Below the pieces are notes generated by a model. That model was not told the DNA's origin. It saw only the letters and a list, made by a program, of their open reading frames with translations, and searched no databases. A DNA stretch of 43,530 bases from a virus (taxonomy: Duplodnaviria; Heunggongvirae; Uroviricota; Caudoviricetes). The DNA lies in IMG/VR virus record IMGVR_UViG_2734482773_000003, positions 1-43,530 of that record; one strand, given 5' to 3'. The position numbers and the translations under genes are program-made. Of this stretch, positions 7,676 to 42,908 are shown one piece after another (within the stretch, counting starts at the first letter, position 1; the number at the start of each line of letters is the position of its first letter).

Positions 7676-8353
7676 TTATGGGATGTTTAGTATTTTGGCA
7701 TCAACCACAACGCCGATGATTTTGCAGTTTCCATTAATTTCTAGCATTGGATATGCGGGGTTAAGGGGCTTTAGGAAGCGTCTGCCGGCATCGATTACAA
7801 GCTTCTTAAAGGTCGCTTCGTTATCGCCTTCTAGCTTCGCGACAACCAGCTTTCCGTTGCGCGGCTCGACTTCAGGATCAACAAGTATCGCTGCTCCCTC
7901 AGGTATGCTCAGTCCAGCCGGGGAGGTCATAGAATCCCCTTTAACGTCCAGCCAGAATGAATCTTCTGAGCAGTCAACAGTCGTGTCATACCAGCGATCT
8001 ATCGCTCTTCGGTGATAAGGTTCTACAGCTTCCATCCATTGCCCCGCGCTTACCCAGCTGATTACAGGATAACTTCCTTTTGTCTCGTTCAGTCCTCGAA
8101 ATGCAACGTTCGAAGGTTCTTCACTGGCGTGTAAAACATCCATCCAGCCAAAAGGCAGATCAAGCGCAGTTTCAATTTTGCGAGCCATCTTATCGCCGAT
8201 ATTGCGATGAGGGTTTGGTCCCAGTAGCTGGCTAAGCGCAGCCGGACTTGTCTCGATGAGCTCGGCAAACTGCGCTTTGGTCATTCCAGACTCGTGCTGA
8301 CGCTTCTCGTACAGCGCTTCCAGGTTGGCTTTTCTGATTTCTTTATTTTCCAT
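7676..8353 (-). CDS. cI: CI-like prophage repressor (HTH N-terminus plus S24 LexA-like autopeptidase C-terminus)
   Basis: ORF 7676..8470(-); ATG at 8353; N-terminal HTH (MTKAQFAELIETSPAALSQLL); C-terminal S24 motifs GDSM (Ser) and KLVV...K (Lys); divergent from the cro-like gene. Confidence 0.85.
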   Translation of the reverse strand: MENKEIRKANLEALYEKRQHESGMTKAQFAELIETSPAALSQLLGPNPHRNIGDKMARKIETALDLPFGWMDVLHASEEPSNVAFRGLNETKGSYPVISWVSAGQWMEAVEPYHRRAIDRWYDTTVDCSEDSFWLDVKGDSMTSPAGLSIPEGAAILVDPEVEPRNGKLVVAKLEGDNEATFKKLVIDAGRRFLKPLNPAYPMLEINGNCKIIGVVVDAKILNIP

Positions 8354-8371
8354 ACCTGCATTGTTACTGCT

Positions 8372-8439
8372 TTTAGCAAAATGATAAATGTGCAAATTGC
8401 TAAATGATGCTTGCGTAGTATTTAGCATAACGCTAAACT
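8372..8439. promoter_or_regulatory. OR-type operators with candidate pR promoter
   Basis: tttagc-aaaat-gataaa 8372..8388 and tttagc-ataac-gctaaa 8421..8437, plus a weaker site near 8388..8404; candidate rightward promoter TTGCGT (8411..8416) - 17 nt - TAAACT (8434..8439) overlapping the last operator. Confidence 0.55.
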
Positions 8440-8469
8440 CCAAATCAAACGACTCACCCGGAGACACCA

Positions 8470-8703
8470 ATGAGCACTGAACTACACCGCTGGCGCAAGG
8501 CCGCCACTACCGACGAATGGGCGCAGCTCGCAAAGTTGGCTAACACGACGCCAGGTTACCTGGACCAGATCGCCTACGGAAATCGCCGGGCATCTCCAGA
8601 AATGGCATCTGCTATCGAGAAAGGCACGAAGAATTTTCACCGCCAGGCTCCGGTCCTAAAAGAAAGCCTGGTATTCGCATCGCCGCGTGATACTGCGGCC
8701 TAA
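8470..8703 (+). CDS. cro: Cro-like HTH regulator (YdaS/Cro type)
   Basis: ATG 8470 with GGAG upstream; HTH-like segment EWAQLAKLANTTPGYLDQIAYGNRRASPEMASAIEKGT; first rightward gene divergent from cI. Confidence 0.7.
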   Translation: MSTELHRWRKAATTDEWAQLAKLANTTPGYLDQIAYGNRRASPEMASAIEKGTKNFHRQAPVLKESLVFASPRDTAA

Positions 8704-14519: not shown

Positions 14520-14663
14520 CCCATTCGACGCAGCAAGGCTGTAAGAAAAATAGCAAACTATTTTAACTCATTGATATATACACATGTTTTACAATTTAAC
14601 TGCTTCATTTCCTCTTGCATGGTGGTACATTCATTTGGCGATGTAAAACCAACAGGAGGCGTT

Positions 14664-14945
14664 ATGAGTATCGATCAACTTTGCATGAAACAAGAGTGTT
14701 GGGCATTGGAGATGCTTGGTAGGGTTGGCGCTTTAACGCAGTGCCCTCATCATGAGGGCACTTATGTTGATGAGGGCATAGAAGAGTCCGACATCTACAA
14801 ATACGCAGCCGGAGCTTATAAAAAAAGCAACGGTAGTCATCTATTCGAAAGCTTTAAAGAGATGACTGATGCTGTTAAAAGCGCATACGAAGAACACGGT
14901 GGAAATGATGTTTGCCCGCAGTGCTTTAAACGCGTGGACGACTAA
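14664..14945 (+). CDS. hypothetical phage protein (93 aa) with Cys/His pairs
   Basis: ORF 14571..14945; internal ATG at 14664 preceded by AGGAGG 6 nt upstream; contains CPHH and CPQC motifs. Confidence 0.5.
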   Translation: MSIDQLCMKQECWALEMLGRVGALTQCPHHEGTYVDEGIEESDIYKYAAGAYKKSNGSHLFESFKEMTDAVKSAYEEHGGNDVCPQCFKRVDD

Positions 14946-17394: not shown

Positions 17395-17895
17395 ATGAAA
17401 CTGGAATTAACCAACGAGCAGCATCAGTGGATTGATCAGTGGCTCCAGTTGTGGGGTGCATGGTCGCAGACCGGGAAGATAGACAAGGCGATGATCAACA
17501 TGATTGCCAAGTTTATGGCGACCGTCGAACCGCAGCAGGCATCTCGCCCGGTATGTAGCGACGACGACGGTATGCTGATTGACGCAGTGCTGCGCCATTA
17601 CCTGAAAAATATCGACGAGAACGCCTGGCGTGTTGTCTTCGCCTATTACGTCTGCAACTCCAGTGAGATCCGCATCGCCAGCTGGCAGCACGCTGTGAGC
17701 AAACCTCGAGTGATGAAGACGCGTGGCGGGAATCAGTATAAGCACCCGAGCATATCCACCATACGCCGGGAGGTGAAGGAAACACTTAACGCGGCACTGT
17801 TCTGCCTGTATCAACCGCTGCAAAATGCCTTTATCAGCCGCGATAATGTGAACAAAGTTGCAAAAAATGTTCACAACGTGCTTGCTTTTCAATGA
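17395..17895 (+). CDS. putative late-gene antiterminator (Q position)
   Basis: AAGGAGG upstream of ATG 17395; last early gene before the terminator/tRNA/lysis region; assignment is by position, no motif-level match claimed. Confidence 0.45.
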   Translation: MKLELTNEQHQWIDQWLQLWGAWSQTGKIDKAMINMIAKFMATVEPQQASRPVCSDDDGMLIDAVLRHYLKNIDENAWRVVFAYYVCNSSEIRIASWQHAVSKPRVMKTRGGNQYKHPSISTIRREVKETLNAALFCLYQPLQNAFISRDNVNKVAKNVHNVLAFQ

Positions 17896-18939: not shown

Positions 18940-19397
18940 GCCGATTAACAGCAATCATCTGTGCTGTCGTTATCTGCCTGCTCGTTTCCATGGCCTGGGC
19001 GATTAACCACTACCGCGACAACGCCATCGCTTATAAAGACCAGCGCGATAAAGCCACTGAGAAACTCAGCCTGGCTAACACCACCATAAAAGACATGCAG
19101 GCCCGCCAGCGTGATGTCGCTGCACTGGATGCCAAATACACCGGAGAACTAGCTGATGCGAAAGAAACCATTGAGCGTCTGCATAGCGATGTCATTGCTG
19201 GCCGTAAGCGGCTGCAGCTCAACGCAAACTGTCCCGCGAACGGAACGACCGGCTCCAGCGGCATGGGCGATGCTTCCGGCCCCCGACTTACTGACTCCGC
19301 TGAACGGGATTATTTCACCCTCAGAGAAAGAATCGCCACAGTGATGAAGCAGGTTGGCTATCTTCAGGAATATCTAAGCACTCAGTGCTTGAAGTAA
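18936..19397 (+). CDS. Rz: Rz-like inner-membrane spanin
   Basis: ORF 18918..19397; ATG 18936 overlapping the endolysin stop (ATGA); N-terminal TM helix [20 protein letters not shown] then coiled coil. Confidence 0.75.
19156..19344 (+). CDS. Rz1: Rz1-like outer-membrane lipoprotein spanin, embedded in Rz in the +1 frame
   Basis: signal peptide with lipobox LAVSGC, Pro-rich mature region, C-terminal [10 protein letters not shown] resembling lambda Rz1; fully nested inside Rz. Confidence 0.7.
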
Positions 19398-19465
19398 AGG
19401 TTTTCTTAATAGTTGCATCTGGTTGTATTGTAGGCTCTGTCTACAACAAAATAAGGTGCTCATAT

Positions 19466-20047
19466 ATGCAACAGTTGCTGAGTGGAATAGATGATTGCTT
19501 GTCTAAAAAGAATTGGTTTGGTGCTTTATTCATAGCAATATCACTTCCTGACATCTGTGGCGCGACAGAGGATAAAATCAAAGGAAATGGCGCGAGGTAC
19601 AAGGACTGGTTTAATCGCTATCTTAAGCCAAGATATAACGCTGATAACATGTATGACTATTTAAGTCTCACCAGCCCTGCAATGGTTCAGAGCATGCCTG
19701 AAGGAATAAAGCAAAGCTTAAGGGCGCAAAAACCCGTAGTCTCATTCACTGCAGAAGACTGTTGGAGTTTAAGGAATGCATGTTTGCATGAAGGCGTTGA
19801 TGAAACGAAGCTAAGGAAGTTTAAGATAACGACCCCTGCGCGAGAAAACCTTCATGCACATATGAATGCTTTTAATGGTGTTCTGCAATTAGATGTTATT
19901 GAGTTATGTAATGATATAGCTAATGGCGTGAGGAGATGGCTTGTTGATATGCAAGAAAATCCTGAGGTTATGGAAAAACTTACGAAAATGATGACCATCG
20001 ATAGTCTGATTTTTGACGGGTTTATTGAATACAAAACTGCAAAATAA
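19466..20047 (+). CDS. AT-rich inserted gene: HEPN-motif protein (candidate RNase / abortive-infection-type toxin)
   Basis: ORF 19385..20047; ATG 19466 with AAGGTG 7 nt upstream; visibly AT-rich against GC-rich flanks; contains RNACLH (Rx4H, HEPN-type); own terminator downstream; sits between Rz and the terminase genes. Confidence 0.5.
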   Translation: MQQLLSGIDDCLSKKNWFGALFIAISLPDICGATEDKIKGNGARYKDWFNRYLKPRYNADNMYDYLSLTSPAMVQSMPEGIKQSLRAQKPVVSFTAEDCWSLRNACLHEGVDETKLRKFKITTPARENLHAHMNAFNGVLQLDVIELCNDIANGVRRWLVDMQENPEVMEKLTKMMTIDSLIFDGFIEYKTAK

Positions 20048-20346: not shown

Positions 20347-20997
20347 ATGAGCAAACCGGACTGGGAGGCCATCGAGACGGCGTACCGGGCCGGAGTGATG
20401 TCCCTCCGAGAAATTGCTTCACAGCACGGTATTAGCGAAGGCGCTATCCGTAAGCGTGCCAAGCGTGACGACTGGTCGCGTGACCTCAATGCGAAGATTC
20501 AGCAAAAGGCTGATGATCTGGTACGCAAACAGGAGGTACGCAAACAGGTACGCAACGAAAGCACTTTGACCGAGCGCGTACTGATAGAGGCGACTGCCGA
20601 GGTAATTGCCACGGTACGCATGGAGCACCGGGGAGACATCCGCCGGGCTCGTGAACTGACCAACACGCTATTCGATGAACTTGGTGCGCAGTGCGCAGAT
20701 GTAAGCGCGCTCGAGCAGTTGGGCGACATCATGTTTGACCCCGACGATAAAGGGCGGGACCGGCTCAATGAAATTTATCAGAAAGTGATCAGCCTGCCTT
20801 CCCGCGTTAAATCCATGAAAGACCTGAGCGACAGCCTAAAGACGCTGATCGGCCTCGAGCGTGAGGCATACAGCATCGAGAATAAGGCTGAAACGAAAGA
20901 GGTCACCCATAACGTCATGCTGGTGCCAACCAGTGACAACGTGGATGACTGGGAGGCGGCAGCGCAGAAACATCAGGACGGGGTGCTCGGTGGATGA
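20347..20997 (+). CDS. terminase small subunit (HTH-containing)
   Basis: GGAG upstream; N-terminal HTH (MSLREIASQHGISEGAIRKRAKRDDW); directly precedes and overlaps the large terminase. Confidence 0.7.
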   Translation: MSKPDWEAIETAYRAGVMSLREIASQHGISEGAIRKRAKRDDWSRDLNAKIQQKADDLVRKQEVRKQVRNESTLTERVLIEATAEVIATVRMEHRGDIRRARELTNTLFDELGAQCADVSALEQLGDIMFDPDDKGRDRLNEIYQKVISLPSRVKSMKDLSDSLKTLIGLEREAYSIENKAETKEVTHNVMLVPTSDNVDDWEAAAQKHQDGVLGG

Positions 20998-22556
20998 ATT
21001 ACAAAGCTGTATGGAAGCCACTGCCTGGATCTCAGTCCCTGGCGCTGAGCTGCCCGTGTAACGAAATCCTGTTCGAGGGCACTCGCGGACCGGGCAAGAC
21101 AGCTGCGCAGTTAGCCAGGTTCAGGCGTAATGTCGGCGTGGGTTATGGCTCGTTCTGGCGCGGCGTCATTTTCGACACCGAATATAAGAACCTTGCCGAC
21201 ATCATCACTCAGTCGAAGCGTATGTTTCGCCTATTCAACGACGGTGCGCGCTATCTGTCATCTGCGAGCGAATTGCGATGGGTATGGCCCACAGGCGAGG
21301 AACTTCTCTTCCGCTTCGGCAAAGAGGCAGACGACTACTGGGATTTCCACGGGCAGGAATTCCCGTTTATCGGCTTTAACGAGCTGACTAAACAGCAGTC
21401 CCCGGAATTCTACGAAATGATGTTCTCGTGCCGACGTTCATCGTTCAGGCCGGAAAACTACCCGCTGGAGAATGGCAAGTTACTGAGGCCAATCCCGCTA
21501 GAGACATTCAGCACGACCAACCCGTTTGGCATCGGGCATACCTGGGTGAAGAAGCGCTTCATTGAGCCAGCGCCGCGCGGAACCGTACAGCGCGACCGGC
21601 AAATGGTATTCAACCCTCAGACTGAGCGAGAAGAGGAAATCACGCTGACCCGCGTGGCAATCCACGGCTCGTTTAAAGAAAACCCGTACCTCGACCCGCA
21701 GTACATCGCGACCCTGATGGCCATCAAAGACCCTAACCGACGCAAGGCCTGGGTAGAGGGCTCCTGGGATGTGACCAGTGGCGGACGATTTGACCACCTG
21801 TGGAATGAAGCGCTGCACGTCATTAAGCCGTTCCGCATACCGGATAGTTGGACCGTCGACCGCTCCCATGACTGGGGTGAGTCGAAGCCGTTCTCTAACC
21901 TCTGGTGGGCCCAAGCTGACGGCACTGCCGCCGAGCTGCCAGATGGTCGACAGTTCTGCCCGCCGGCTGGTTCGATAATCCTGATCGGAGAATGGTACGG
22001 CTGCCCGCCTGACGAGCTGAACAAAGGCCTGAACATGTCATCCACCAACGTCGCGAAAGGCGTGGCGTGGATTGACAAGCGGCTTGTGGGCGAAGACGTC
22101 GACGAGCCGGAAGAGATTCAAATCGACGGGGTCACGCAGGGCCAACTCAACATTGTGCCGGGAATTTGCTCGGAGGTTATTCCTGGCCCAGCTGATAGCG
22201 CCATTTTCAACACTGGCGACGATGAGTTATCGATCGGTCAGAAAATGGAAAATCAGGGTGTTGAATGGCTTGAGGCCAATAAGAAGCCAGGCTCTCGAGT
22301 CAACGGGGCTTCGGTATTCGCCGACATGCTTGAGGCGGTGGTTGAGGGTAAGAAGCTGGAATCTGGAATTCCTGAGAAGCCTGCTTTTTACGTGTTGGAG
22401 CATTGCCGTGGCTGGATTAGCCGCATACCCGTGCTGGTTCGCGACAGCAAAAACCCGGATGACGTAGATACCCAGCAGGAAGACCACGACTGGGATGCTA
22501 CCCGTTACCGCGTGCTGCACTCACCTCGCCGTTCAGGGGCGATATTCTTCACATAA
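20994..22556 (+). CDS. terminase large subunit
   Basis: 520 aa; Walker A-like GTRGPGKT; nuclease-domain acidic residues in the C-terminal half; canonical position. Confidence 0.9.
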   Translation: MNYKAVWKPLPGSQSLALSCPCNEILFEGTRGPGKTAAQLARFRRNVGVGYGSFWRGVIFDTEYKNLADIITQSKRMFRLFNDGARYLSSASELRWVWPTGEELLFRFGKEADDYWDFHGQEFPFIGFNELTKQQSPEFYEMMFSCRRSSFRPENYPLENGKLLRPIPLETFSTTNPFGIGHTWVKKRFIEPAPRGTVQRDRQMVFNPQTEREEEITLTRVAIHGSFKENPYLDPQYIATLMAIKDPNRRKAWVEGSWDVTSGGRFDHLWNEALHVIKPFRIPDSWTVDRSHDWGESKPFSNLWWAQADGTAAELPDGRQFCPPAGSIILIGEWYGCPPDELNKGLNMSSTNVAKGVAWIDKRLVGEDVDEPEEIQIDGVTQGQLNIVPGICSEVIPGPADSAIFNTGDDELSIGQKMENQGVEWLEANKKPGSRVNGASVFADMLEAVVEGKKLESGIPEKPAFYVLEHCRGWISRIPVLVRDSKNPDDVDTQQEDHDWDATRYRVLHSPRRSGAIFFT

Positions 22557-22566
22557 GGACAACTCA

Positions 22567-24042
22567 GTGAGTAACGATACAGAAATGCAAGTCCTCGCTG
22601 GGCTGATTGTGAATAGCCTCAACGAGGTATCGCGATCTCGACAGCTTTATGCGGCTGGCTTCAATAAATCAGGCAACACCAAGCGACATCATCTGTGGTG
22701 TGAATTTGGCTATCCTGAGCGCCTCGACTTTGACCACTTCTACAACATGTATGAGCGCAACGGTGCCGCGTTCGGTGCTGTTCATAAGTTGCTCGATGCA
22801 TGCTGGACTGATACCCCGGTGATCGTCGACGGCGATGAGACGAAGAAGTCTAAAAAGTCGACGCCATGGGAAAAGAAAGTCACCAAGCTCATGAAGAAAT
22901 ACTGGGCCAAGGTGAAGGACGCTGATAGACGTAACCTTGTCGGTCACTACTCAGCCCTAATTCTTCAGTTTGCCGATAGTCGTGAATGGTCTGAGCCAGT
23001 TAATCGTGACGTAATGCGTAATTCGCGCGAGCGTGGCCTGGTGAAGATGATTCCTGCATGGGAATCGCAGGTAAAGCCTGGCGAATTAGAGCAGGATCAG
23101 AAGTCCCCTGATTACGCCATGCCGAAGTTTTATTATTTTCAGGAGCAACCTGTAGGGGACAACGGCAGTATTGTTGGTCCTATGCGCTCAATCAAAATTC
23201 ATCCTGAGCGCATCATTATTTTTTGCGAGGGTTCAGAAGATGAATCCTCACAGGCTGGCATCCCGTTCTTGCGTGCAGGCTATAACGACCTGCTGGATAT
23301 GGCTAAAACCTCCGGCGGCAGCGCTGAGGGGTTCCTGAAAAACGCCAGCAGGCAGCTCGGCATTAACATGTCGAAAGACACCAAGATTGACAAAATCATG
23401 GAGGATGCCAAGAAGGCTGGTTACTCGGGGCTGGCTGAGGCGCTTAACGCTGCTATCCAGAAGCTTAACTCTGGTACAGATTCGGCCCTGGTGACGCAGG
23501 ACGGAGAGGCTAAAGTGCTTTCCGTTGCCGCTGCCGATCCGAGTCCAACGTGGACAGTGTCAGCTAACCAGTTTTCATCTTCAGTCCAGATGCCATTCAC
23601 CATCTTGTTTGGTCAGCAGACAGGAAGGCTTGCTTCAGATCAGGACAAAAACGACTTTGCCAAGCGCTGTAATGGTCGCCGCAACGGGTTCCAGACTGAC
23701 CGGGCAAGTGCAGTTATAGAACGGCTTTGGACTGTGGAGGTTATCGAACCACCTAAATCTGGCGAAATCACGTTAACCTGGTCTGATCTACTCGCTCCAA
23801 GCGAGAAAGAGAAGATTGCCAACATGAAGGAAATGGCTGCGGTGGCGAAGGATACCCAGCAAGCCTACGGCACACCTGCTGTTGATGAGAACGAGGTCAG
23901 GGAAGCGGGAGAACTTGAGCCGCGTGAAGATGTTAAGCCGCCTGATCCAAATAAAAAGGTAACGACCGATGATCCTCTTTCCGATGACGCCGGAGCAAAA
24001 GACGAAAGTCGGGACACCGGTAGTTCCGCGCAGCAAGGTTGA
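22567..24042 (+). CDS. portal protein
   Basis: ORF 22495..24042; GTG 22567 with AAGGA 7 nt upstream, just after the terminase stop (alternative ATG 22585); about 490 aa with acidic C-terminus, directly downstream of the terminase. Confidence 0.7.
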   Translation: MSNDTEMQVLAGLIVNSLNEVSRSRQLYAAGFNKSGNTKRHHLWCEFGYPERLDFDHFYNMYERNGAAFGAVHKLLDACWTDTPVIVDGDETKKSKKSTPWEKKVTKLMKKYWAKVKDADRRNLVGHYSALILQFADSREWSEPVNRDVMRNSRERGLVKMIPAWESQVKPGELEQDQKSPDYAMPKFYYFQEQPVGDNGSIVGPMRSIKIHPERIIIFCEGSEDESSQAGIPFLRAGYNDLLDMAKTSGGSAEGFLKNASRQLGINMSKDTKIDKIMEDAKKAGYSGLAEALNAAIQKLNSGTDSALVTQDGEAKVLSVAAADPSPTWTVSANQFSSSVQMPFTILFGQQTGRLASDQDKNDFAKRCNGRRNGFQTDRASAVIERLWTVEVIEPPKSGEITLTWSDLLAPSEKEKIANMKEMAAVAKDTQQAYGTPAVDENEVREAGELEPREDVKPPDPNKKVTTDDPLSDDAGAKDESRDTGSSAQQG

Positions 24043-24973
24043 CCCAACCCTATCGGCAAAGCAGGTAACCGCGATGTTCCGGGATATCGAGAAGCGATAT
24101 ATCGGCATCAAGCGAGCGCTGAAATCTCTGTTCGACCAGCGCCTTACCGGGCGTGAGCGCGAGGTTAACAGCCATAACTGGCACTTCCTTTGTCATGACC
24201 ACGGCGCGGATATGCGCCTCTACCAGGTAAACGCCGGCAAGTTCATCTACGACATGTCGGCGCAGGAACTGGCGGACCTGCTGGAAGCGGTGCAGGCCAT
24301 TCTCGACGATTACCTGCTGGATGGTGGCGAGCAAAATCTCTGGGCGAAGGATTACGTCGTCGCAGAAGCGCAGCGCGGCACGCTTGAGGCATTCAATAAC
24401 CTCTCGCAACAGTCGCAGGTGTATGCCAGTCAGACGACGCTGCAGCAGCTTTTAAGCAGTCCCGGTCATCTTAATCAGGTGGCAGCGGCAAGGCTGACAA
24501 CGTTCAGTGACTGGAAGGTCATCAGCGATACAGCCCGCGGCGACCTGACCAACATCATCACCGATGCGGTCGCGCGCGGGGTGAACCCTCGCGAGACGGC
24601 CAGCGTAATCAGCAAGCGCCTCGATGTGTCGATGTCGAAGGCAAAGACCATCGCTCAGACTGAGCAGGTCGGCGCACTGCGGCAGGCACAATGGAACGAA
24701 ACCGACTGGGCTGCTGACCGGCTGGGGCTGAATACCGGCCTACTGTGGTTGTCAGCGCTAAAACCAACGACGCGAACCTGGCATGCCAGCCGCCACGGCA
24801 AGGTCTACACCACCGAAGAGATTCGGGACTTCTACGCCGAGAACGGCAACCGGTACAACTGCTACTGCAGCCAGATCCCAGTGCTGCTCAACGACGACGG
24901 CAGCATCTTCAATGAGGGGCTGGCTGAGAAACTGGCGAAAGAGAGGAAAGCTTGGAAATCCGAGTCGGAGTGA
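23969..24973 (+). CDS. head morphogenesis protein (Mu F / SPP1 gp7-like minor head protein)
   Basis: 334 aa; conserved C-terminal region (WHASRHGKVYTTEEIRDF...NCYCSQIP) typical of minor head proteins; start uncertain (23969 overlaps the portal by 74 nt; alternative 24074). Confidence 0.65.
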   Translation: MILFPMTPEQKTKVGTPVVPRSKVDPTLSAKQVTAMFRDIEKRYIGIKRALKSLFDQRLTGREREVNSHNWHFLCHDHGADMRLYQVNAGKFIYDMSAQELADLLEAVQAILDDYLLDGGEQNLWAKDYVVAEAQRGTLEAFNNLSQQSQVYASQTTLQQLLSSPGHLNQVAAARLTTFSDWKVISDTARGDLTNIITDAVARGVNPRETASVISKRLDVSMSKAKTIAQTEQVGALRQAQWNETDWAADRLGLNTGLLWLSALKPTTRTWHASRHGKVYTTEEIRDFYAENGNRYNCYCSQIPVLLNDDGSIFNEGLAEKLAKERKAWKSESE

Positions 24974-25012
24974 TATCATCATGTAAATGATAAAGTTGCT
25001 TAAGGGTGAGCA

Positions 25013-25528
25013 ATGAGCAGTGTAACTCCGGCAGAAGTCGGTTCATTCTTTTTATCTCTAGTTGTTCCAATCACCACTGGGGTTGTGGCAGCAGGATTTA
25101 CTGCATTTTTCGCTCTGAATCGATTTTACAAAGAAAAATGGTGGGAGAAGAAACATGCTGCGTACAATCAATTAATTGATAAATTATTTGAAATCAAAGC
25201 AATTTATTCCCACGCCTCAGATTTTTACGAGGCTGAATACAATGCTGGTATGTATGATAGGCCGCCGCCGAAAGGGTCTGTTGATTGGAATACATTCCAT
25301 CAAATAAAAGCGCAACTCCATCGGTTTTATGTGCTCGCACCAATCTCTCTAAGCAATAATACAAGGGATTTGCTCAATAATTTCTTCAAGCAGGACGCTG
25401 ATTCCGATCATAGTGTTTACGAAGAGGGTTACCCAGATTTTGTGGCATACAATGATATGACGATTGCGACCCAGCAACTTATTGATGCCATTGTCTTGGA
25501 CGCTGAAAAAGAACTTAAATTTAAATAA
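25013..25528 (+). CDS. AT-rich inserted gene: membrane-anchored protein of unknown function (candidate exclusion/defence protein)
   Basis: 171 aa; AAGGGTGAG upstream; single N-terminal TM helix FFLSLVVPITTGVVAAGFTAFFAL then soluble domain; visibly AT-rich versus flanking head genes; own terminator downstream. Confidence 0.5.
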   Translation: MSSVTPAEVGSFFLSLVVPITTGVVAAGFTAFFALNRFYKEKWWEKKHAAYNQLIDKLFEIKAIYSHASDFYEAEYNAGMYDRPPPKGSVDWNTFHQIKAQLHRFYVLAPISLSNNTRDLLNNFFKQDADSDHSVYEEGYPDFVAYNDMTIATQQLIDAIVLDAEKELKFK

Positions 25529-25544
25529 CCTCAGAGCTCCTGAA

Positions 25545-25567
25545 GGTCGCTACGGCGGCCTTTTTTA
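25545..25567 (+). terminator. intrinsic terminator after the inserted membrane-protein gene
   Basis: hairpin ggtcgc-tacg-gcggcc (one G-U) 25545..25560 followed by ttttttatt. Confidence 0.5.
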
Positions 25568-25597
25568 TTGCCAGATATCCAATAACGAGGACCCAGC

Positions 25598-26986
25598 ATG
25601 AAACGCAACCGCGTTAACGTGCTGACCGTCGTCAACTCCGCTTCAAACATCACCACTGAAACCATCGACGGCAAGCCACATATCGTGGTTCGCGGCATCA
25701 CGCCTGTCGTGGACGATATTGTGATGAACCGGAAGTTGTACCCGGCAGCCGAAATCGAAAAGGCCTACAACACACTCGAGCGCAACCCGATGCCGCTGGG
25801 CCATCCGAAAGTGGACGGCAAGCATGTTTCGGCGCGCGATGTCCGGGCGGTGAATGAGTATCACGTCGGGGCATGGCTGCAGAACGTCAGCCACAAAGAC
25901 GGGAAAGTGACGGGCGATATGTACGTTAACCGCCAGTACGCCGAATCCAGCGACAAGGGCAAGCGCCTGATTAACCGTCTGGATGAGATGTTGGCTGGTA
26001 CCAACTCCGACCCGATCCACATCTCAACCGGTCTGCTGTATTCCGGCATCGCCGCCAATGGTGAGTCGAAGGGCAAGAAGTACAACGAGATCGCCACCAA
26101 CATGATGTTTGACCATGTGGCGGTGCTGCTCGATGAGCCTGGCGCGGGTACGCCGGAGGATGGCGTGGGCATCTTCGTTAACTCTGAAGGTGATGAGCAG
26201 CAGATTGAAGTTGCCCGTCTGGCTGATGGCATCGACTGTACCCGAGACGGCCTGCTCAACAAGACCAAATTCTTCTTCACCAATGCCTCTAATTTCTCTT
26301 TCGACGATATCTCCCGCGCTATCAGCGACAAGCTGCGCGAGGGTGACACCGAAGATAAGTGGCTTTGGCCTGAAACGGTGTGGCCGGACAGCTTCATCTA
26401 CCGCAATGACACCAAATACCTGAAACAGAAGTACCTCATCGATGATGACGGCAAGGCCGTGTTCGTCGGCGAACCTGTAGAAGTCGTGCGCAAACCCACT
26501 GAGTACGAGATTAAAACCAACGGAGAGAACGATCCGATGAAAGAACTGATTATCAATGCGCTGCAAGCCGCTGGTAAGCCGACTGAAGGCAAGTCCGACG
26601 CCGAGCTGATGGACGCATACAACCAGATGAAGGCCGAAGAAGCCACCGCCAAGAAAAAAGGCGATGAAGAAATCGACCCGGAAACCGGCAAGCCCAAGAA
26701 AAAAGAGCAGGCCGCCAATAACGAAGAGATGCCAGCGTGGGCGCAGAAACTCGCCGATCGCGTGGACGTCGTTTTCAACAGCCTGAGCGCTAACGCCGAT
26801 AAAGAGAAAGGCGAAAAGCGCGCGGCTGTGAAGCTGGCGATGAACATGAGCGACGACGAAGTCGCGGATCTGGACGGTAAGGCGCTCGACGCCATGTACG
26901 CCAAGTGCCAGACATCTTTCGGCCTGAACGGTGCATTCCGCCATCAGGCAACCAACACCCAATCAGTCAGCGAAATGCCGGAGTAA
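25598..26986 (+). CDS. head scaffolding / prohead-protease-like protein
   Basis: 462 aa, acidic and Lys/Glu-rich C-terminal half typical of scaffolds; located between the morphogenesis gene and the capsid genes; assignment by position and composition. Confidence 0.5.
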   Translation: MKRNRVNVLTVVNSASNITTETIDGKPHIVVRGITPVVDDIVMNRKLYPAAEIEKAYNTLERNPMPLGHPKVDGKHVSARDVRAVNEYHVGAWLQNVSHKDGKVTGDMYVNRQYAESSDKGKRLINRLDEMLAGTNSDPIHISTGLLYSGIAANGESKGKKYNEIATNMMFDHVAVLLDEPGAGTPEDGVGIFVNSEGDEQQIEVARLADGIDCTRDGLLNKTKFFFTNASNFSFDDISRAISDKLREGDTEDKWLWPETVWPDSFIYRNDTKYLKQKYLIDDDGKAVFVGEPVEVVRKPTEYEIKTNGENDPMKELIINALQAAGKPTEGKSDAELMDAYNQMKAEEATAKKKGDEEIDPETGKPKKKEQAANNEEMPAWAQKLADRVDVVFNSLSANADKEKGEKRAAVKLAMNMSDDEVADLDGKALDAMYAKCQTSFGLNGAFRHQATNTQSVSEMPE

Positions 26987-32372: not shown

Positions 32373-33005
32373 ATGGAAAGACAGTACGCAGTACTTCTTG
32401 ACGCAGGGTTCTTGCGCCGAAAATTAGGTACTCAGGCAGCACCAATGACAGCTCAAAATGTCGAAGATTTAGTTAATAAAATTAAAGCACGAGCTGAGTT
32501 ATTAGGGATGCGGTTGTATCGTGTGTTTTATTACGACGCTGAGCCTTTCACGGGTACTAAGACACATCCTATATCCAACGCTGTTATTAACTTTGGCGCT
32601 ACACAAATGGCCATTGATTGTAATACATTGTTAGATGAGCTTAAGGTCAAGCCTTTTTTTGCTGTGCGCCTAGGGGAACTCAATTTTAGAGGGTGGAAGG
32701 TTTCTGATGCTGCTCTTCAGTCAGGTGCAGGAGGGACGGCAACAATTAATGCTCATAATGTTTCTCCCAATCTTCAGCAGAAAGGTGTGGATATGAGGAT
32801 CGCATTAGATATCTCATCTATGACTTTAAAAAACCAAGCAGACGTTTTTTGCTTGGTAACAGGTGACTCAGATTTTGCACCCATCATCAAATTTGCGAGA
32901 TCTGAAGGAAAGCAAGTATTCACTTATACTCTCGGTCATAGAGTCAAACCATCTTTGCCTATTCATTCTGACCTCCATATCCCTGAAACGTACGCTAATT
33001 TGTAA
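32373..33005 (+). CDS. AT-rich inserted gene: NYN/LabA-like (PIN-fold) nuclease-domain protein
   Basis: 210 aa; motifs AVLLDAGFL, KGVDMRIALD and LVTGDSDFAPIIKFARSEGKQV match the NYN/LabA acidic-residue signature (from memory); visibly AT-rich; flanked by its own promoter and terminator inside the tail module. Confidence 0.6.
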   Translation: MERQYAVLLDAGFLRRKLGTQAAPMTAQNVEDLVNKIKARAELLGMRLYRVFYYDAEPFTGTKTHPISNAVINFGATQMAIDCNTLLDELKVKPFFAVRLGELNFRGWKVSDAALQSGAGGTATINAHNVSPNLQQKGVDMRIALDISSMTLKNQADVFCLVTGDSDFAPIIKFARSEGKQVFTYTLGHRVKPSLPIHSDLHIPETYANL

Positions 33006-39861: not shown

Positions 39862-41730
39862 ATGGCTACGACACCTACCAATCTTCCTGTTCCAAGTGAA
39901 TCACCGCGCGATCTGAAATTTAACGCCGGAAAAATAGACGAGTTTGTAACCTCAGGAAATCATGTTTATGTTGACAGGTTCGGCGATGAACATCGTACAA
40001 TTGCTGGCATAAATTACGATGCAAATCAGGCAATGCTGAATTATGGCTACATCACGAAGAAGTCTTTTGAAATTGGCGCTACCCTCGACACTCCTAACAC
40101 TGTTCTTCAGTGGGAGAGCAATGGCGAATACTACCGCTGGGATGGGGACTGGTCACAGCCCAAAGTAGTTCCCGCTGGTTCTACGCCTGATAGTACCGGT
40201 GGAATTGGGGAAGGGAAATGGGTTGGAGTAGGAGATGCTTCATTAAGGTCTGATTTGGCTGGTGCCGGTGGTTCAGATATGATCGGGACACCTAATGGAA
40301 CTGTGGAAGAAAGGCTTAATCAACTAAAGGATAAGGATGAAGATTTAGGGAAAAAGATAGTAACAACTATCATTCCATGTCCTACACCAACAATCGATAA
40401 TGGTGTAAAGGCTGTTGTGAAATCATCATCTGATGATGATTTTTATATTATCTCTAAAAGAGCCAATGGTAAGTCTGGCTTTATCGCTTTGCGCGTAACC
40501 AATGACGTATCAGTTTCTGATGCGAGCAACTACGGTGGTGCATCACCATTCCGTCCTGGATCTGTTGAGCGAGTGAGAGATGCGATTTATGCGAAGTTAG
40601 CTCCATCCACTAAATCATCTGGTGTTACTTTATCAACCCTAACTGCATCACAAATCGCAACACTTTATGGATTTACAGCAACCGGAAGTTCTATCAACGC
40701 AGTGACTGCAAGTGGCGATTTTTCGCTTATAAGCCCACAGGTATATAACGTTCCTAATGGCGAATCTGTTGTTTATAAGCTTGAAATGTCGAATAAAGCT
40801 ACAATTCGGCTTGGATGCTCTAATGGTGCTTCTACAACTGTAAATATAAGCATCAGTCGAGATGGAACTAACTGGCTTCTTCAGAAAACAGTTAACACAC
40901 AACTTCCTCCATCAGGTCTTGGTCCGCTACCTCTTGATATTGAAGTGAATGGTCTAAGTGGTGTTTGGTATGTTCGTGTATCAAATGGGCACGCCAACCC
41001 TCTGTATCTTGTCGGTCTGAATATTGGCTATATTGGTTCTGATAAAATATATGACTATGATGCATTCATTGCAACGATAGAGCCTGATTTGAGTACTGGA
41101 CCTTCATATTATTTCGGAGGTAATGGAGCTACAGAATTTGCAGCGAAAGAATTATCTACTGGTAAATTCTTCGGAACATTCCATGGTGGTCATAGTAATT
41201 TTCTTCAAAGATTAAGAACCGAATCAGCTTCTTATAACCTGGATAGCTCCACTGCACCAACTCTCTTGCTTACGAAGAATGCCACTTTACACAGCGCTTC
41301 TCTTATCACGGTGCAGTCATCAACATATAACTATGTGGCGTCAACACAGTTTGGTGATGGTGTGACTATCACTAATTTCGCACTTCAGAAGCAATCCGGA
41401 GAGGCAATTTTATGTGAGCGAATTTATACGCACATGGCAACATCTGCGCGAAACTTCGACTGGATACACCTTCCTGTTCTTCTGAATAAGACGGATGATG
41501 GGTATGTTCAGGTTGGTCAGTGCGGATTTATACAGCAATTCAGATCAGACGATGCGGCTTACGTTAACTGCTACTTTTCGCAAGTCAACGTCTCTGAAAA
41601 CGGCTATGGAGGGGCTTATGTTTCCTTCCAAAATAACTATAACAAGCAGTATTATGGGTCAGTATTTTCTTCTTCAGTAGGGGTTCCTCTTTCTGACGGC
41701 TCCTACACAACATGTAAAGAGTTTTTCTGA
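39862..41730 (+). CDS. tail fibre / tailspike protein with conserved N-terminal anchor and divergent AT-rich C-terminal receptor-binding region
   Basis: 622 aa; composition drops to AT-rich after roughly the first 150 codons; Ser/Thr/Asn/Gly/Tyr-rich C-terminus typical of beta-structured receptor-binding/depolymerase domains. Confidence 0.65.
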   Translation: MATTPTNLPVPSESPRDLKFNAGKIDEFVTSGNHVYVDRFGDEHRTIAGINYDANQAMLNYGYITKKSFEIGATLDTPNTVLQWESNGEYYRWDGDWSQPKVVPAGSTPDSTGGIGEGKWVGVGDASLRSDLAGAGGSDMIGTPNGTVEERLNQLKDKDEDLGKKIVTTIIPCPTPTIDNGVKAVVKSSSDDDFYIISKRANGKSGFIALRVTNDVSVSDASNYGGASPFRPGSVERVRDAIYAKLAPSTKSSGVTLSTLTASQIATLYGFTATGSSINAVTASGDFSLISPQVYNVPNGESVVYKLEMSNKATIRLGCSNGASTTVNISISRDGTNWLLQKTVNTQLPPSGLGPLPLDIEVNGLSGVWYVRVSNGHANPLYLVGLNIGYIGSDKIYDYDAFIATIEPDLSTGPSYYFGGNGATEFAAKELSTGKFFGTFHGGHSNFLQRLRTESASYNLDSSTAPTLLLTKNATLHSASLITVQSSTYNYVASTQFGDGVTITNFALQKQSGEAILCERIYTHMATSARNFDWIHLPVLLNKTDDGYVQVGQCGFIQQFRSDDAAYVNCYFSQVNVSENGYGGAYVSFQNNYNKQYYGSVFSSSVGVPLSDGSYTTCKEFF

Positions 41731-41749
41731 TACCCAAGGCTTGGAGAAT

Positions 41750-41773
41750 GGGCAAGGCCGCAATGCCTTGCCC
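41750..41773. terminator. hairpin between convergent tail-fibre and acyltransferase genes (possible bidirectional terminator)
   Basis: gggcaaggc-cgcaat-gccttgccc 41750..41773; no strong U-tract on either strand. Confidence 0.35.
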
Positions 41774-41798
41774 ATATCCTGTTATGAATCAGCAGAGG

Positions 41799-42908
41799 CT
41801 AAATTGCTGGTTTTCTTGTCTTGATTAAATTACCTGCCATATCAACCAAATATTTTCTTAATGCCAAGATAGCAAGGTTTATAATAATAGGGATAACAAT
41901 GCCTGCAACGATATAAACAGGCCAGTACAAAGGATCTGAAAAGTGCGACAAAGCCTTAGCTTTCCCTATTTCATACATTCCCATCCAGCCGAAAATAATA
42001 TCCAACAAAATGAATGCAAGTAAGTGGAAAGACATAATGCATTTGCTTTCCCTCCCTATGTAGAGAATGGTTTTCGACTTTATTGCTTTAGATAGCATGC
42101 AGGATAAGGAAAATACTATATATGAGCAAAGTAATATTTGAACATAAGTCAGCAAAAATCCATGCTTGTAGTTACTCCATGAAACCCCTATATCTCCGCT
42201 TAGCCCCAGTCGGCGCATAGTAATAACCAATAAAAACGCCAAGCACATCCAAAGCAAAGAAGGTGATTTAAATATCAAATCCTTAAATGTTTTTCCTATC
42301 AACATAAAGGCAAGCGCAAAGAGGATTTGAGAACCATAGTTATTTAATATATTCCATTCAGATTTGTATGCCACAGCAAGATAATCGATGGAAACCCAAC
42401 CACATGCTATGATAGTCAGAACGGATAAAATACTTTTCGCGGTTCTATTTAAATGTTTTGTTATGCGCAGATAGCAATATAGAAGGATGGATGCCATTGC
42501 ATATGCGAAAAGAAACCATGATACTAAAAATAAAAAACTAATATGCATATTAGTATTCAAAAAGTAAATGGCATAATCATAGATAGAGCTCTGAGCTTTA
42601 TATAGCCCTGAAATTCCAGTGCTCTCTTGTATAAGATATGAAACTAGCAATAAAAACATATCCACAATTACTATATAAAAAAAGAACTTTCTGATTATTA
42701 TACTAAGGAATTGTAGAGGGTTTTTATTCTCGTTAAATACAATTCCTCCAATCATGAAAAATAGAGGCATATGATACATATACGGCGTCATAACATTAAA
42801 TATGTTATTTGAGTAGTGCCCTATAACGACAACAATAATTCCAAGAGCCTTTGCATAATCAATAGCAGCTCTCCTGTATTGCTGATCATCATTGCTAATC
42901 GTATTCAT
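41799..42908 (-). CDS. acyltransferase-3 family integral membrane protein (putative O-antigen/polysaccharide O-acetyltransferase; lysogenic-conversion candidate)
   Basis: 369 aa with about 10 predicted TM helices; N-terminal RAAIDYAKALGIIVVVIGHY matches the acyltransferase-3 start motif; strongly AT-rich; AGGGTG upstream of ATG 42908; convergent with the tail fibre. Confidence 0.7.
   Translation of the reverse strand: MNTISNDDQQYRRAAIDYAKALGIIVVVIGHYSNNIFNVMTPYMYHMPLFFMIGGIVFNENKNPLQFLSIIIRKFFFYIVIVDMFLLLVSYLIQESTGISGLYKAQSSIYDYAIYFLNTNMHISFLFLVSWFLFAYAMASILLYCYLRITKHLNRTAKSILSVLTIIACGWVSIDYLAVAYKSEWNILNNYGSQILFALAFMLIGKTFKDLIFKSPSLLWMCLAFLLVITMRRLGLSGDIGVSWSNYKHGFLLTYVQILLCSYIVFSLSCMLSKAIKSKTILYIGRESKCIMSFHLLAFILLDIIFGWMGMYEIGKAKALSHFSDPLYWPVYIVAGIVIPIIINLAILALRKYLVDMAGNLIKTRKPAI

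What the first reader, a model, noticed from the sequence alone, without database searches (positions are those of the whole stretch)
24974..25597. AT-rich single-gene insertion inside the head module encoding a membrane-anchored protein with its own terminator
Between the head-morphogenesis and scaffold genes lies a 171-aa gene with one N-terminal transmembrane helix and a soluble domain, clearly AT-richer than its neighbours and followed by a terminator at 25545..25567. Structural gene blocks are normally uninterrupted, so this is likely an accessory gene expressed in the lysogen. Small inner-membrane proteins in this situation are often superinfection-exclusion or abortive-infection factors.
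Basis: inference. Interest (0 to 1): 0.6.

Follow-up and report, generated by a model that had tools for sequence, protein, structure and literature searches.

The report
Membrane-protein moron in prophage head genes
An AT-rich, self-contained gene cassette for a membrane-anchored protein of unknown family sits in a highly variable accessory-gene slot between two head genes of a temperate phage; it is probably a prophage-borne protection factor, but that function is not shown.

Summary
ORF 25013..25528 (171 aa) has 39.7% GC against 55-58% in the flanking head genes. It has one N-terminal transmembrane helix and is followed by a strong hairpin plus T-run at 25542..25569. An extended -10 promoter-like site overlaps the stop codon of the upstream gene.

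Comparison shows a classic moron in a hypervariable slot. Among 77 viral contigs whose downstream head gene is at least 97% identical, the slot is 122-1304 bp long and holds about 30 different contents. This family fills 13 of them. Other contents include a Lit abortive-infection protease, a Rap1a immunity protein and an HNH endonuclease. Phage ES18 has the slot empty.

Allele identity (34-100%) is uncoupled from the flanks. The gene is under purifying selection (dN/dS about 0.1).

The protein is predicted to be a single-pass, N-out/C-in inner-membrane protein with a cytoplasmic four-helix bundle. The membrane-proximal part is conserved (motif RFYxEKWWEKK). The segments inferred to form the distal tip are hypervariable.

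It belongs to a large family without annotation (at least 1254 clusters; no Pfam, PADLOC or PDB match). It is not SieA, SieB or Sie2009. A defence or exclusion role is plausible by context only.

The parts
23969..24973 (+). Left flank: Mu-F / SPP1 gp7-like head-morphogenesis gene. Its last codons contain the -35-like hexamer, and its TGA stop forms part of the extended -10.
   Evidence: PF04233 E 1e-11 and phrog_758 E 2e-141. Homology with relatives that carry other cargo ends at about 24934-24957.
24952..24979 (+). Promoter-like site: TTGGAA (24952-24957), a 16-nt spacer, then the extended -10 TG-a-TATCAT (24971-24979).
   Evidence: Consensus scan. A strict TGnTAnnnT lies 20-55 nt upstream of the ATG in 26 of 63 unique upstream regions of family members, against 3.2 expected from shuffles (maximum 9). 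By my own hand count of the printed sequences, about 23 more carry TGnTATAAA-like variants at the same place. Function was not tested.
25002..25010 (+). Shine-Dalgarno-like AAGGGTGAG, 3-4 nt before the start codon.
   Evidence: Read directly from the sequence. An AGGTG-type motif recurs at the same position in the upstream regions of several alleles.
25013..25528 (+). The 171-aa gene (phrog_17948). N-tail is residues 1-9, the TM helix about 10-35, and the invariant juxtamembrane motif R37-F-Y-x-E-K-W-W-E-K-K47 follows. Residues about 36-168 form a cytoplasmic four-helix bundle.
   Evidence: ORF. phrog_17948 E 1e-30. AF2 model with pLDDT 84.5 and helices 6-81, 92-108, 115-138 and 142-168. Alignments A1 and A2. 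dN/dS about 0.1. The identical protein is listed in NCBI as 'MULTISPECIES: hypothetical protein [Enterobacteriaceae]' on 85 contigs.
25040..25117 (+). Coding region for the transmembrane helix (residues about 10-35). One helix face carries conserved small residues: G23, A26, A27, T30, A31, A34.
   Evidence: Hydropathy 1.94. Invariant or near-invariant columns in A1. No positive charge before the helix and net +3 after it, giving a predicted N-out/C-in topology by the positive-inside rule (inference).
25542..25569 (+). Intrinsic terminator: GAAGGTCGC-UACG-GCGGCCUUU followed by a T-run.
   Evidence: Scan. Fold energy -15.6 kcal/mol, z -2.6. Two stem types across alleles differ by compensatory changes (AAGGTCGC/GCGGCCTT versus GACCCGC/GCGGGT). 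A hairpin plus T-run lies downstream in 56 of 63 unique cases.
25570..25597 (+). Conserved linker and ribosome-binding region for the next head gene (..ATCCAATAACGAGGACCCAGC). It is the right-hand boundary of the slot.
   Evidence: Shared at 86-93% with relatives that carry other cargos, and with the region after ES18 gene 3. It is duplicated where two cassettes are stacked, as in ENT1 (L002).
25598..26986 (+). Right flank: DUF2213-like head gene (phrog_760), a probable scaffold or protease-type protein. It is homologous to ES18 gp7.
   Evidence: PF09979 E 5e-5 and phrog_760 E 7e-199. 36% identity to ES18 gp7 over 193 aa, E 2.5e-34.

Best explanation
The feature is a moron: a self-contained expression cassette made of a promoter-like site, a Shine-Dalgarno motif, one gene and an intrinsic terminator. 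It sits in a hypervariable accessory-gene slot between the Mu-F-like and DUF2213-like head genes of an ES18-type head module in a lambdoid Enterobacteriaceae prophage.

Shown by the data:
- The cassette is exchanged horizontally, independently of its flanks.
- It exists as several deeply diverged allele classes, each under purifying selection.
- It is one of about 30 alternative cargos of the slot.

Inferred about the protein:
- It is a single-pass inner-membrane protein with a 9-residue periplasmic N-tail and a cytoplasmic four-helix bundle.
- The transmembrane helix has a conserved small-residue face and probably packs against other helices.
- The bundle end next to the membrane and the RFYxEKWWEKK motif are conserved.
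- The membrane-distal tip is hypervariable.

Most likely function, inferred from context only: the gene is transcribed from its own promoter in the lysogen, and by Q-antiterminated read-through late in infection. The protein protects the lysogen against other phages at the cytoplasmic face of the inner membrane. The variable tip would set specificity. The conserved membrane part would act as anchor or effector. That action could be either a block on genome entry or establishment, or a loss of membrane integrity in an abortive response.
For: Cassette anatomy:
- Composition, promoter-like site, terminator and hairpin energy are all as described.

Variable slot:
- ES18 has the two flanking genes 2 nt apart.
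- Phage relatives with 84-94% identical flanks carry other small genes.
- In 77 IMG/VR loci whose DUF2213 N-terminus is at least 97% identical, the slot is 122-1304 bp, holds about 30 content types, and has this family in 13.

Uncoupling from the flanks:
- In L013 the flanks are 91-97% aa identical but the gene only 38%.
- In L007 the gene is 87% identical but the flanks only 73-74%.

Real gene:
- Between the window and L007, pS is 0.84 and pN 0.07.
- Pooled dN/dS is 0.10-0.14 over 12 independent close pairs.

Portable module:
- 62 of 80 viral loci have the gene in this slot. The other 18 have it elsewhere; markers place some next to N/cI or xis/int. It is always AT-richer than its surroundings.
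- A Salmonella chromosome keeps it alone in a 1.15-kb islet between ycgN and dsbB.

Conflict-related company:
- A Lit homologue (PADLOC E 8e-42) and a Rap1a homologue occupy the same slot in relatives.
- Distant family members lie next to a type III restriction subunit, HerA, IS transposases and integrases.

Protein architecture and conservation:
-.

Precedents for defence morons in late operons:
- Tab (PMC10884400), Tai (PMC11364771) and P22 SieA, which also occurs as types less than 30% identical at one locus (PMC10883804).
Against: - There is no functional or expression data.
- There is no similarity to any known defence, exclusion or abortive-infection family.
- Fold searches return only generic four-helix bundles.
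- No positive selection is seen in the variable tip among close alleles; dN/dS is 0.14. A fast arms race is therefore not visible.
- The strict extended -10 is present in only 26 of 63 unique upstream regions. The variants lack the final T of the hexamer, so promoter strength is uncertain.
- The slot also holds cargos that are not anti-phage: an HNH endonuclease and a T6SS-immunity-like Rap1a. Guilt by association is therefore weak.
- With only about 9 periplasmic residues, the protein cannot act like receptor-masking or periplasmic exclusion proteins.
- The model coordinates could not be inspected, so the proximal/distal assignment rests on the order and length of the helices.
Confidence: 0.5

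Rival explanations
1. It is a lysogenic-conversion or host-fitness gene unrelated to phage defence. A membrane-tethered cytoplasmic protein could modulate a host envelope, division, transport or stress pathway. The benefit to lysogens would be ecological rather than antiviral.
For: - The moron evidence is the same as for the main reading.
- The gene is retained alone in a Salmonella chromosome beside core genes.
- Some distant members lie beside housekeeping genes, for example a molybdopterin oxidoreductase in L031.
- The same prophage carries an O-antigen-type acyltransferase.
- Selection is purifying, with no arms-race signal.
- The slot also carries a non-antiviral cargo, Rap1a.
Against: - Very deep allele classes (34-100% identity) are maintained at one locus and shuffled independently of the flanks. 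This is more typical of specificity or conflict genes than of a housekeeping-like modulator.
- No similarity to any known host-pathway regulator was found.
Confidence: 0.22
2. It is a counter-defence or lytic-cycle helper that benefits the phage itself. It could neutralise a membrane-associated host defence effector, or tune lysis or superinfection behaviour of infected cells. It would be expressed mainly by read-through of the early-left or late operons.
For: - Distant homologues lie inside early-left operons, directly after N (24 nt from its stop codon) or before xis/int. Phages keep anti-restriction and anti-defence genes in these regions.
- In the head slot, the gene is co-oriented with the late operon and would be transcribed by antiterminated read-through. 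This follows from established lambdoid Q biology; a Q-like gene lies at 17395-17895.
Against: - It has promoter-like and terminator signals of its own.
- It occurs as a lone chromosomal islet, and next to IS elements outside any phage.
- It is absent from most of the closest relatives.
Confidence: 0.13
3. It is a head-assembly accessory protein, for example a membrane tether for portal or procapsid initiation as with T4 gp40 (comparison from memory). It would belong functionally to the head module.
For: - It lies between the portal/Mu-F genes and the scaffold-like gene.
- 62 of 80 viral loci with a family member have it in exactly this place.
Against: - It is present in only 13 of 77 closest relatives, and ES18 has none.
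- It is replaced by unrelated genes, including Lit and an HNH endonuclease.
- Allele type does not co-vary with portal, Mu-F, DUF2213 or capsid type.
- Its composition is foreign.
- Homologues occur in early operons and outside phages.
Confidence: 0.03
4. It is a selfish or toxic membrane peptide gene, such as a toxin of an addiction module, or a non-functional remnant.
For: - The architecture is a small single-pass membrane protein.
- A profile search gave a very weak hit of the TM region to the PepA1 toxin, E 0.24.
Against: - No partner antitoxin or conserved neighbour was found.
- Rfam found no RNA family in the region at a meaningful score; the only hit had E 0.76.
- Strong purifying selection acts over the whole 171 aa, including the soluble domain.
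- The hit to PepA1 is not significant.
Confidence: 0.05

Closest known systems
P22 SieA (superinfection exclusion, inner membrane; PMC10883804)
   Same: - It is a small (about 160 aa) inner-membrane protein encoded by an independently transcribed gene set among virion genes of a temperate enterobacterial phage.
- It exists as several types less than 30% identical at the same locus.
   Different: - SieA has three predicted TM segments and is on the opposite strand to its neighbours.
- There is no sequence relationship (hhalign probability 0.7%).
- SieA's block of ejection-protein function has been demonstrated. Nothing is demonstrated here.
HK97 gp15 moron (recalled from Cumby et al. 2012; only its reference entry was seen; not tested here)
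   Same: - It is a moron inside the late structural operon of a lambdoid phage.
- It encodes a small inner-membrane protein that protects lysogens by blocking genome entry.
   Different: No sequence comparison was made; the region I fetched did not include gp15. From memory, its architecture differs and lacks a large cytoplasmic helical domain.
Tab and Tai (defence morons in or beside packaging genes; PMC10884400, PMC11364771)
   Same: They are single small proteins of no known family. They are encoded as morons in or next to the late operon of temperate phages and give anti-phage defence.
   Different: - The Tab paper's main text makes no mention of a transmembrane segment.
- Both act on virion or tail assembly of the invader.
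- They sit in other positions: between the terminase genes, or upstream of the packaging module.
Lit (e14 Peptidase U49 abortive-infection protease)
   Same: It occupies exactly the same slot, with the same right-hand terminator-type boundary, in a close relative (L190; PADLOC E 8e-42).
   Different: It is an unrelated protein (a 291-aa metalloprotease). It shares only the genomic niche.
Lambda/P22 SieB (PF14163) and lactococcal Sie2009
   Same: - Both are membrane-associated prophage exclusion proteins of 170-190 aa.
- Some distant homologues of the window protein sit directly after N, the part of the early-left region where lambda keeps sieB.
   Different: - No homology was found (hhalign probability 0.2% and 0.5%).
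- Sie2009 has a positively charged N-terminus, from which I infer the opposite topology with an external domain.
Four-helix-bundle sensor domains of chemoreceptors (Tar/Tsr 4HB_MCP)
   Different: - The resemblance is generic; designed bundles score as well.
- There is no Pfam match, no second TM helix and no signalling domain.
- The bundle is predicted to be cytoplasmic, not periplasmic.

Membership tests
Moron (Juhala/Hendrix sense) | An extra gene lies between two genes that are adjacent in related phages. | tested here: met
   ES18 gp6 and gp7 are 2 nt apart and gp7 is homologous to the right flank. The family is present in 13 of 77 closest relatives, with about 30 alternative contents.
Moron (Juhala/Hendrix sense) | Nucleotide composition differs from the surrounding genome. 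| tested here: met
   39.7% GC against 55-58%, and GC3 of 37% against 72-74%. The same holds in all 80 viral loci.
Moron (Juhala/Hendrix sense) | It has its own terminator downstream. | tested here: met
   A hairpin of -15.6 kcal/mol plus a T-run. Stem types differ by compensatory changes. Present in 56 of 63 unique cases. This is sequence-level evidence only.
Moron (Juhala/Hendrix sense) | It has its own promoter upstream. | tested here: inconclusive
   TTGGAA-16-TGaTATCAT. The strict motif is enriched, 26 of 63 against 3.2 expected. The other alleles have weaker variants. No transcript data are available.
Moron (Juhala/Hendrix sense) | It is expressed from the repressed prophage. | not testable with these tools
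   Needs lysogen RNA-seq, 5' RACE or a reporter fusion.
PHROG phrog_17948 (unknown function) | Significant match to the family profile over its full length. | tested here: met
   E 1.1e-30, residues 11-170 against profile positions 5-167 of 185.
SieB (PF14163) | Sequence or profile similarity to SieB. | tested here: not met
   No Pfam hit at E <= 0.1. hhalign of family profile A2 against lambda SieB gives probability 0.2%. Lambda SieB itself scores 1e-29 on PF14163.
P22 SieA | Sequence similarity and a three-TM architecture. | tested here: not met
   hhalign probability 0.7%. One hydrophobic segment here against three predicted in SieA.
Lactococcal Sie2009 | Sequence similarity and an N-in signal anchor with an external domain. 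| tested here: not met
   hhalign probability 0.5%. The charge distribution is opposite.
Known anti-phage defence systems (PADLOC-DB v2) | Match to any defence-protein profile. | tested here: not met
   No family at E <= 10.
Superinfection exclusion / abortive infection (functional class) | Reduces productive infection by other phages when expressed. | not testable with these tools
   Contextual support only.
4HB_MCP sensor domain | Profile match, a bundle flanked by two TM helices, and a downstream signalling module. | tested here: not met

The most novel reading that the evidence does not exclude
The 171-aa protein would be the first examined member of a large, unrecognised family of one-protein, membrane-anchored anti-phage sensors. 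The family has at least 1254 clusters at 50% identity, spans many bacterial phyla, and has no Pfam model.

In this reading, the hypervariable tip of the cytoplasmic four-helix bundle recognises a phage component. The conserved RFYxEKWWEKK / small-residue TM module then oligomerises to block genome entry or to collapse the membrane.

Separately, the Mu-F | DUF2213 slot would be a defence-gene hotspot of Enterobacteriaceae prophages, comparable to the P2/P4 hotspots. It would be a ready source of new systems.
Probability: 0.2. Interest if true: 0.75.

Novelty: new member of a known kind. Interest (0 to 1): 0.45.

Why it matters
Morons in late operons are a proven source of prophage-encoded defence; SieA, gp15, Tab and Tai are examples.

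This protein family is common. The identical protein is on 85 contigs and a close variant on 365, across Enterobacter, Klebsiella, E. coli and Cronobacter. It is found across many phyla and is completely unannotated. It is the most frequent single occupant I saw in a slot that also carries Lit.

If it is a defence factor, two things follow. It would add a new single-gene, membrane-based mechanism. It would also mark a cheap-to-mine hotspot, with about 30 cargos among 77 near-identical backbones, in prophages of clinically important Enterobacteriaceae. That bears on phage-therapy host range.

If it is not, the result is still a well-documented example of cassette exchange at conserved promoter and terminator boundaries.

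Tried and rejected
Family and structure searches for the 171-aa protein:
- Pfam, NCBIfam and PADLOC gave nothing.
- PDB sequence search with the single protein gave nothing.
- PDB search with the family profile gave only coiled-coil-like gp41 hits (E >= 0.006) and a non-significant PepA1 hit.
- BFVD gave nothing significant.
- The afdb50 library was unavailable.
- A Pfam scan of 67 diverse family members gave no informative domain or fusion.

Direct comparisons:
- Profile comparison with lambda SieB, P22 SieA and Tuc2009 Sie2009 was negative in each case.
- The HK97 region I fetched did not include gp15, so that comparison was not made.

Other analyses:
- A search for a conserved partner gene around 24 distant homologues found none.
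- dN/dS between allele classes could not be used, because synonymous sites are saturated. Close pairs show purifying selection and no excess in the variable tip.
- An Rfam scan of the region gave nothing.
- A search of complete E. coli genomes with the E. coli-type allele matched only the DUF2213 gene and part of the intergenic region just before it.

A structural or assembly role was considered and rejected on presence/absence and lack of co-variation.

My first estimate, that the extended -10 is conserved in nearly all alleles, was too generous. The strict motif is found in 26 of 63.

Full report
**1. What is in the sequence**

The window is a lambdoid temperate phage genome. It has a cI-like repressor (7676-8470, minus strand), a CII-like gene, a Q-like antiterminator (17395-17895), a tRNA-Thr, terminase genes (20347-22556), a portal gene (22495-24042) and a Mu-F/SPP1-gp7-like head-morphogenesis gene (23969-24973). 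After the finding come a DUF2213-like gene (25598-26986), a decoration gene, a DUF6260 major capsid gene and tail genes.

The ORF at 25013..25528 encodes 171 aa. Its GC content is 39.7% (GC3 36.6%), against 58.2% and 55.5% (GC3 72-74%) for its neighbours. That is 2.3 SD below the window mean and about 3.7 SD below the late-operon mean.

Downstream, a 9-bp hairpin with a UACG loop and six T (25542-25569) folds at -15.6 kcal/mol, z = -2.6. Upstream, TTGGAA-16 nt-TGaTATCAT (24952-24979) is a promoter-like site. Its TGA is the stop codon of the Mu-F-like gene. An SD-like AAGGGTGAG precedes the ATG.

**2. It is a cargo of a hypervariable slot**

- **Phage relatives.** Phages with 84-94% identical flanks lack the gene and carry other small AT-rich genes. 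These are Enterobacter phage ENT1 and Klebsiella phages ST101-KPC2phi6.1 and 2 LV-2017. Homology breaks at about 24934-24957 on the left and about 25521-25578 on the right. The terminator and linker are shared.
- **Shared boundary.** The same terminator and linker (86% over 58 nt) follow gene 3 of Salmonella phage ES18, at a different place in its genome, where the depositors annotated a terminator.
- **Empty site.** ES18 has the corresponding two head genes only 2 nt apart, and its gp7 is homologous to the right flank. This is an empty site.
- **Less biased sample.** I fetched 80 IMG/VR loci whose DUF2213-like N-terminus is at least 97% identical to the window's. Both flanks are present in 77. 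In these, the slot is 122-1304 bp and falls into about 30 content types. This family occupies 13 (17%), in five divergent allele groups.
- **Other cargos.** They include an HNH_3 endonuclease (12 loci) and a Lit / Peptidase U49 homologue (PADLOC E 8e-42). They also include a reverse-strand Rap1a-family protein, a two-TM zinc-ribbon protein, a signal-peptide protein and many unknowns.

**3. The cassette moves independently and is a real gene**

All homologues looked up at 87%, 72%, 52% and 38% identity sit in the same slot. Of 80 viral loci found with the family profile, 62 are in the slot, with 34-100% identity.

Allele identity is uncoupled from the flanks. In L013 the Mu-F gene is 91% and DUF2213 97% identical, but the gene only 38%. 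In L007 the gene is 87% identical but the flanks only 73-74%.

Synonymous sites are saturated between classes (pS 0.84, pN 0.07 against L007). Twelve independent close pairs give dN/dS of 0.10 for the conserved parts and 0.14 for the variable parts. So selection is purifying, and no positive selection is visible.

The remaining 18 viral loci lie outside the slot. For some of them, and for related loci, the markers show a position directly after N beside cI, or before xis/int. A Salmonella chromosome carries a 1.15-kb islet with a 76% homologue between ycgN and dsbB. A 29-nt direct repeat bounds the islet, and the downstream hairpin remains.

In every context the gene is AT-richer than its surroundings.

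**4. Expression signals across alleles**

A strict extended -10 (TGnTAnnnT) lies 20-55 nt before the ATG in 26 of 63 unique upstream regions. Shuffles give 3.2 on average, with a maximum of 9. By my own hand count of the printed sequences, about 23 more have TGnTATAAA, TGCTTAATA or TGCTAAATA at the same position.

A hairpin plus T-run lies downstream in 56 of 63. Two stem types differ by compensatory changes.

The promoter remains a sequence-level inference. The terminator is well supported, but it is a shared boundary of the slot rather than a private feature of this gene.

**5. The protein**

Pfam, NCBIfam, PADLOC and PDB sequence searches find nothing. PHROGs places it in phrog_17948, of unknown function.

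The identical protein is in NCBI as 'MULTISPECIES: hypothetical protein [Enterobacteriaceae]' on 85 contigs. A near-identical variant is on 365 contigs. Hosts include Enterobacter, Klebsiella, E. coli and Cronobacter.

A profile search of 1.84 billion representatives finds 1254 clusters at E <= 1e-3, nearly all 150-200 aa. Genome hits extend to Deltaproteobacteria, Alphaproteobacteria, Planctomycetota, Omnitrophota and Paenibacillus.

No partner gene is conserved. Neighbours of distant members include IS transposases on both sides, a type III restriction subunit, HerA with an 8xMP membrane protein, an integrase and a terminase. They also include ordinary metabolic genes.

AlphaFold2 (pLDDT 84.5) gives one long helix (6-81) followed by helices 92-108, 115-138 and 142-168. 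Residues 10-35 are an uncharged hydrophobic stretch. There is no positive charge before it and a net +3 after it. By the positive-inside rule I infer N-out/C-in, with a cytoplasmic bundle.

Conservation across the family:
- The invariant or near-invariant residues are G23, A26, A27, T30, A31 and A34 (one small-residue helix face). The others are R37-F-Y-x-E-K-W-W-E-K-K47, P110-I-S112 and D163-A-x-x-E-L-x-F170.
- Across 78 sequences below 90% identity, entropy is lowest in residues 36-50 (0.76 bits) and 109-114 (0.86 bits).
- Entropy is highest in residues 66-100 and 127-154 (2.2-2.7 bits).
- In an up-down bundle, the conserved segments lie at the end next to the membrane and the variable ones at the distal tip. 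This is inferred from helix order; I could not inspect coordinates.

**6. Interpretation**

The first part of the explanation, a moron cassette in an accessory-gene hotspot, is shown by comparison. I hold it at about 0.9.

The function is inferred. Five points fit a prophage-encoded protection factor acting at the cytoplasmic face of the inner membrane:
- The slot holds a bona fide abortive-infection gene (Lit) in a relative.
- The family occurs in the accessory regions where temperate phages keep exclusion and defence genes.
- It travels as a single gene with its own signals.
- It survives alone in a chromosome.
- It is kept as deeply diverged types, as SieA is.

Published precedents are Tab, Tai and SieA. 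HK97 gp15 is a further precedent recalled from memory. I put this reading at about 0.45-0.5, and I cannot separate an entry block from an abortive mechanism.

Against it:
- There is no homology to anything known.
- No positive selection is seen.
- The slot also carries non-antiviral cargos (HNH, Rap1a).
- There is no expression evidence.

Rivals are a non-antiviral conversion function (about 0.2), a counter-defence or lytic helper (about 0.13), a toxin or remnant (about 0.05) and a head-assembly protein (about 0.03). The last is contradicted by presence/absence and by the lack of co-variation.

**7. Verdict**

The finding is real and correctly read as an accessory insertion. It is a new, uncharacterised member of a well-known kind of element. 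Interest is moderate. The most useful by-products are the hotspot itself and the size of the unannotated protein family.

Noticed in passing
window 32373-33005 (+): This looks like a second moron inside the structural operon. A 210-aa NYN-domain protein (PF01936 E 1e-12; phrog_5783; weak PADLOC HEC-09/NYN hits) with about 42% GC sits between the tail-chaperone region and the tape-measure gene. It may be a nuclease-type accessory or defence gene.
   Followed up: partly
window 39862-42908: The tail-fibre/spike gene (39862-41730) has an AT-rich C-terminal part. It is followed on the minus strand by a 369-aa Acyl_transf_3 protein (41799-42908, 32-38% GC), probably an O-antigen acetyltransferase for lysogenic conversion.
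   Followed up: partly
window 341-1501 (-); L052 1506-2663: This ORF is a TnpB-type protein (Cas12f1-like TNB plus OrfB_IS605 domains), not an integrase. A 100% identical copy in another viral contig lies directly upstream of the Mu-F-like gene, where the portal gene should be. The IS200/IS605-type element therefore appears to have moved recently among these prophages.
   Followed up: partly
window 25543-25601; ES18 (L003) 2081-2138: The terminator plus ribosome-binding linker to the right of the slot is about 86-90% identical to the sequence after moron gene 3 of Salmonella phage ES18. There it lies between the terminase and portal genes. It is duplicated where two cassettes are stacked (ENT1, L002). 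It looks like a portable boundary sequence at which cassettes recombine.
   Followed up: partly
L134, L136, L145, L150 (slot of 122 bp); also after the gene in L024: The shortest version of the slot has no terminator. It encodes a 37-44-aa cysteine-rich mini-protein (..VYWCCCCGR..PWCCRAP..) of unknown function.
   Followed up: no
L190 2063-2938; L193 1942-2298 (-); L155 2053-2745: Alternative cargos of the same slot in near-identical backbones are a Lit / Peptidase U49 homologue, a reverse-strand Rap1a (T6SS-immunity family) protein and an HNH_3 endonuclease. A similar reverse-strand signal-peptide ORF fills the slot of Cronobacter phage ENT47670.
   Followed up: partly
L021 3367-4575 (Salmonella enterica strain s1 chromosome): A 1.15-kb islet bounded by a 29-nt direct repeat lies between ycgN and dsbB. 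It carries a 76% homologue of the gene with a different N-terminal tail and an eroded copy of the terminator. Nine upstream codons weakly resemble a Mu-F 3' end (E 0.15, not significant). It is a lone copy outside any prophage.
   Followed up: partly
window 19385-20047 (+) and 14571-14945 (+): Two further AT-rich islands. One is a 220-aa protein of phrog_18591 (unknown function, 39% GC) just upstream of the small terminase gene. The other is a lambda ea8.5-like gene (PF20735, 44% GC).
   Followed up: no
L057, L063, L064, L074, L088, L091 (between the gene and the DUF2213-like gene): In several viral contigs, 200-700 bp of extra sequence lies between the family member and the next head gene. 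The slot can therefore hold two cassettes in tandem.
   Followed up: no
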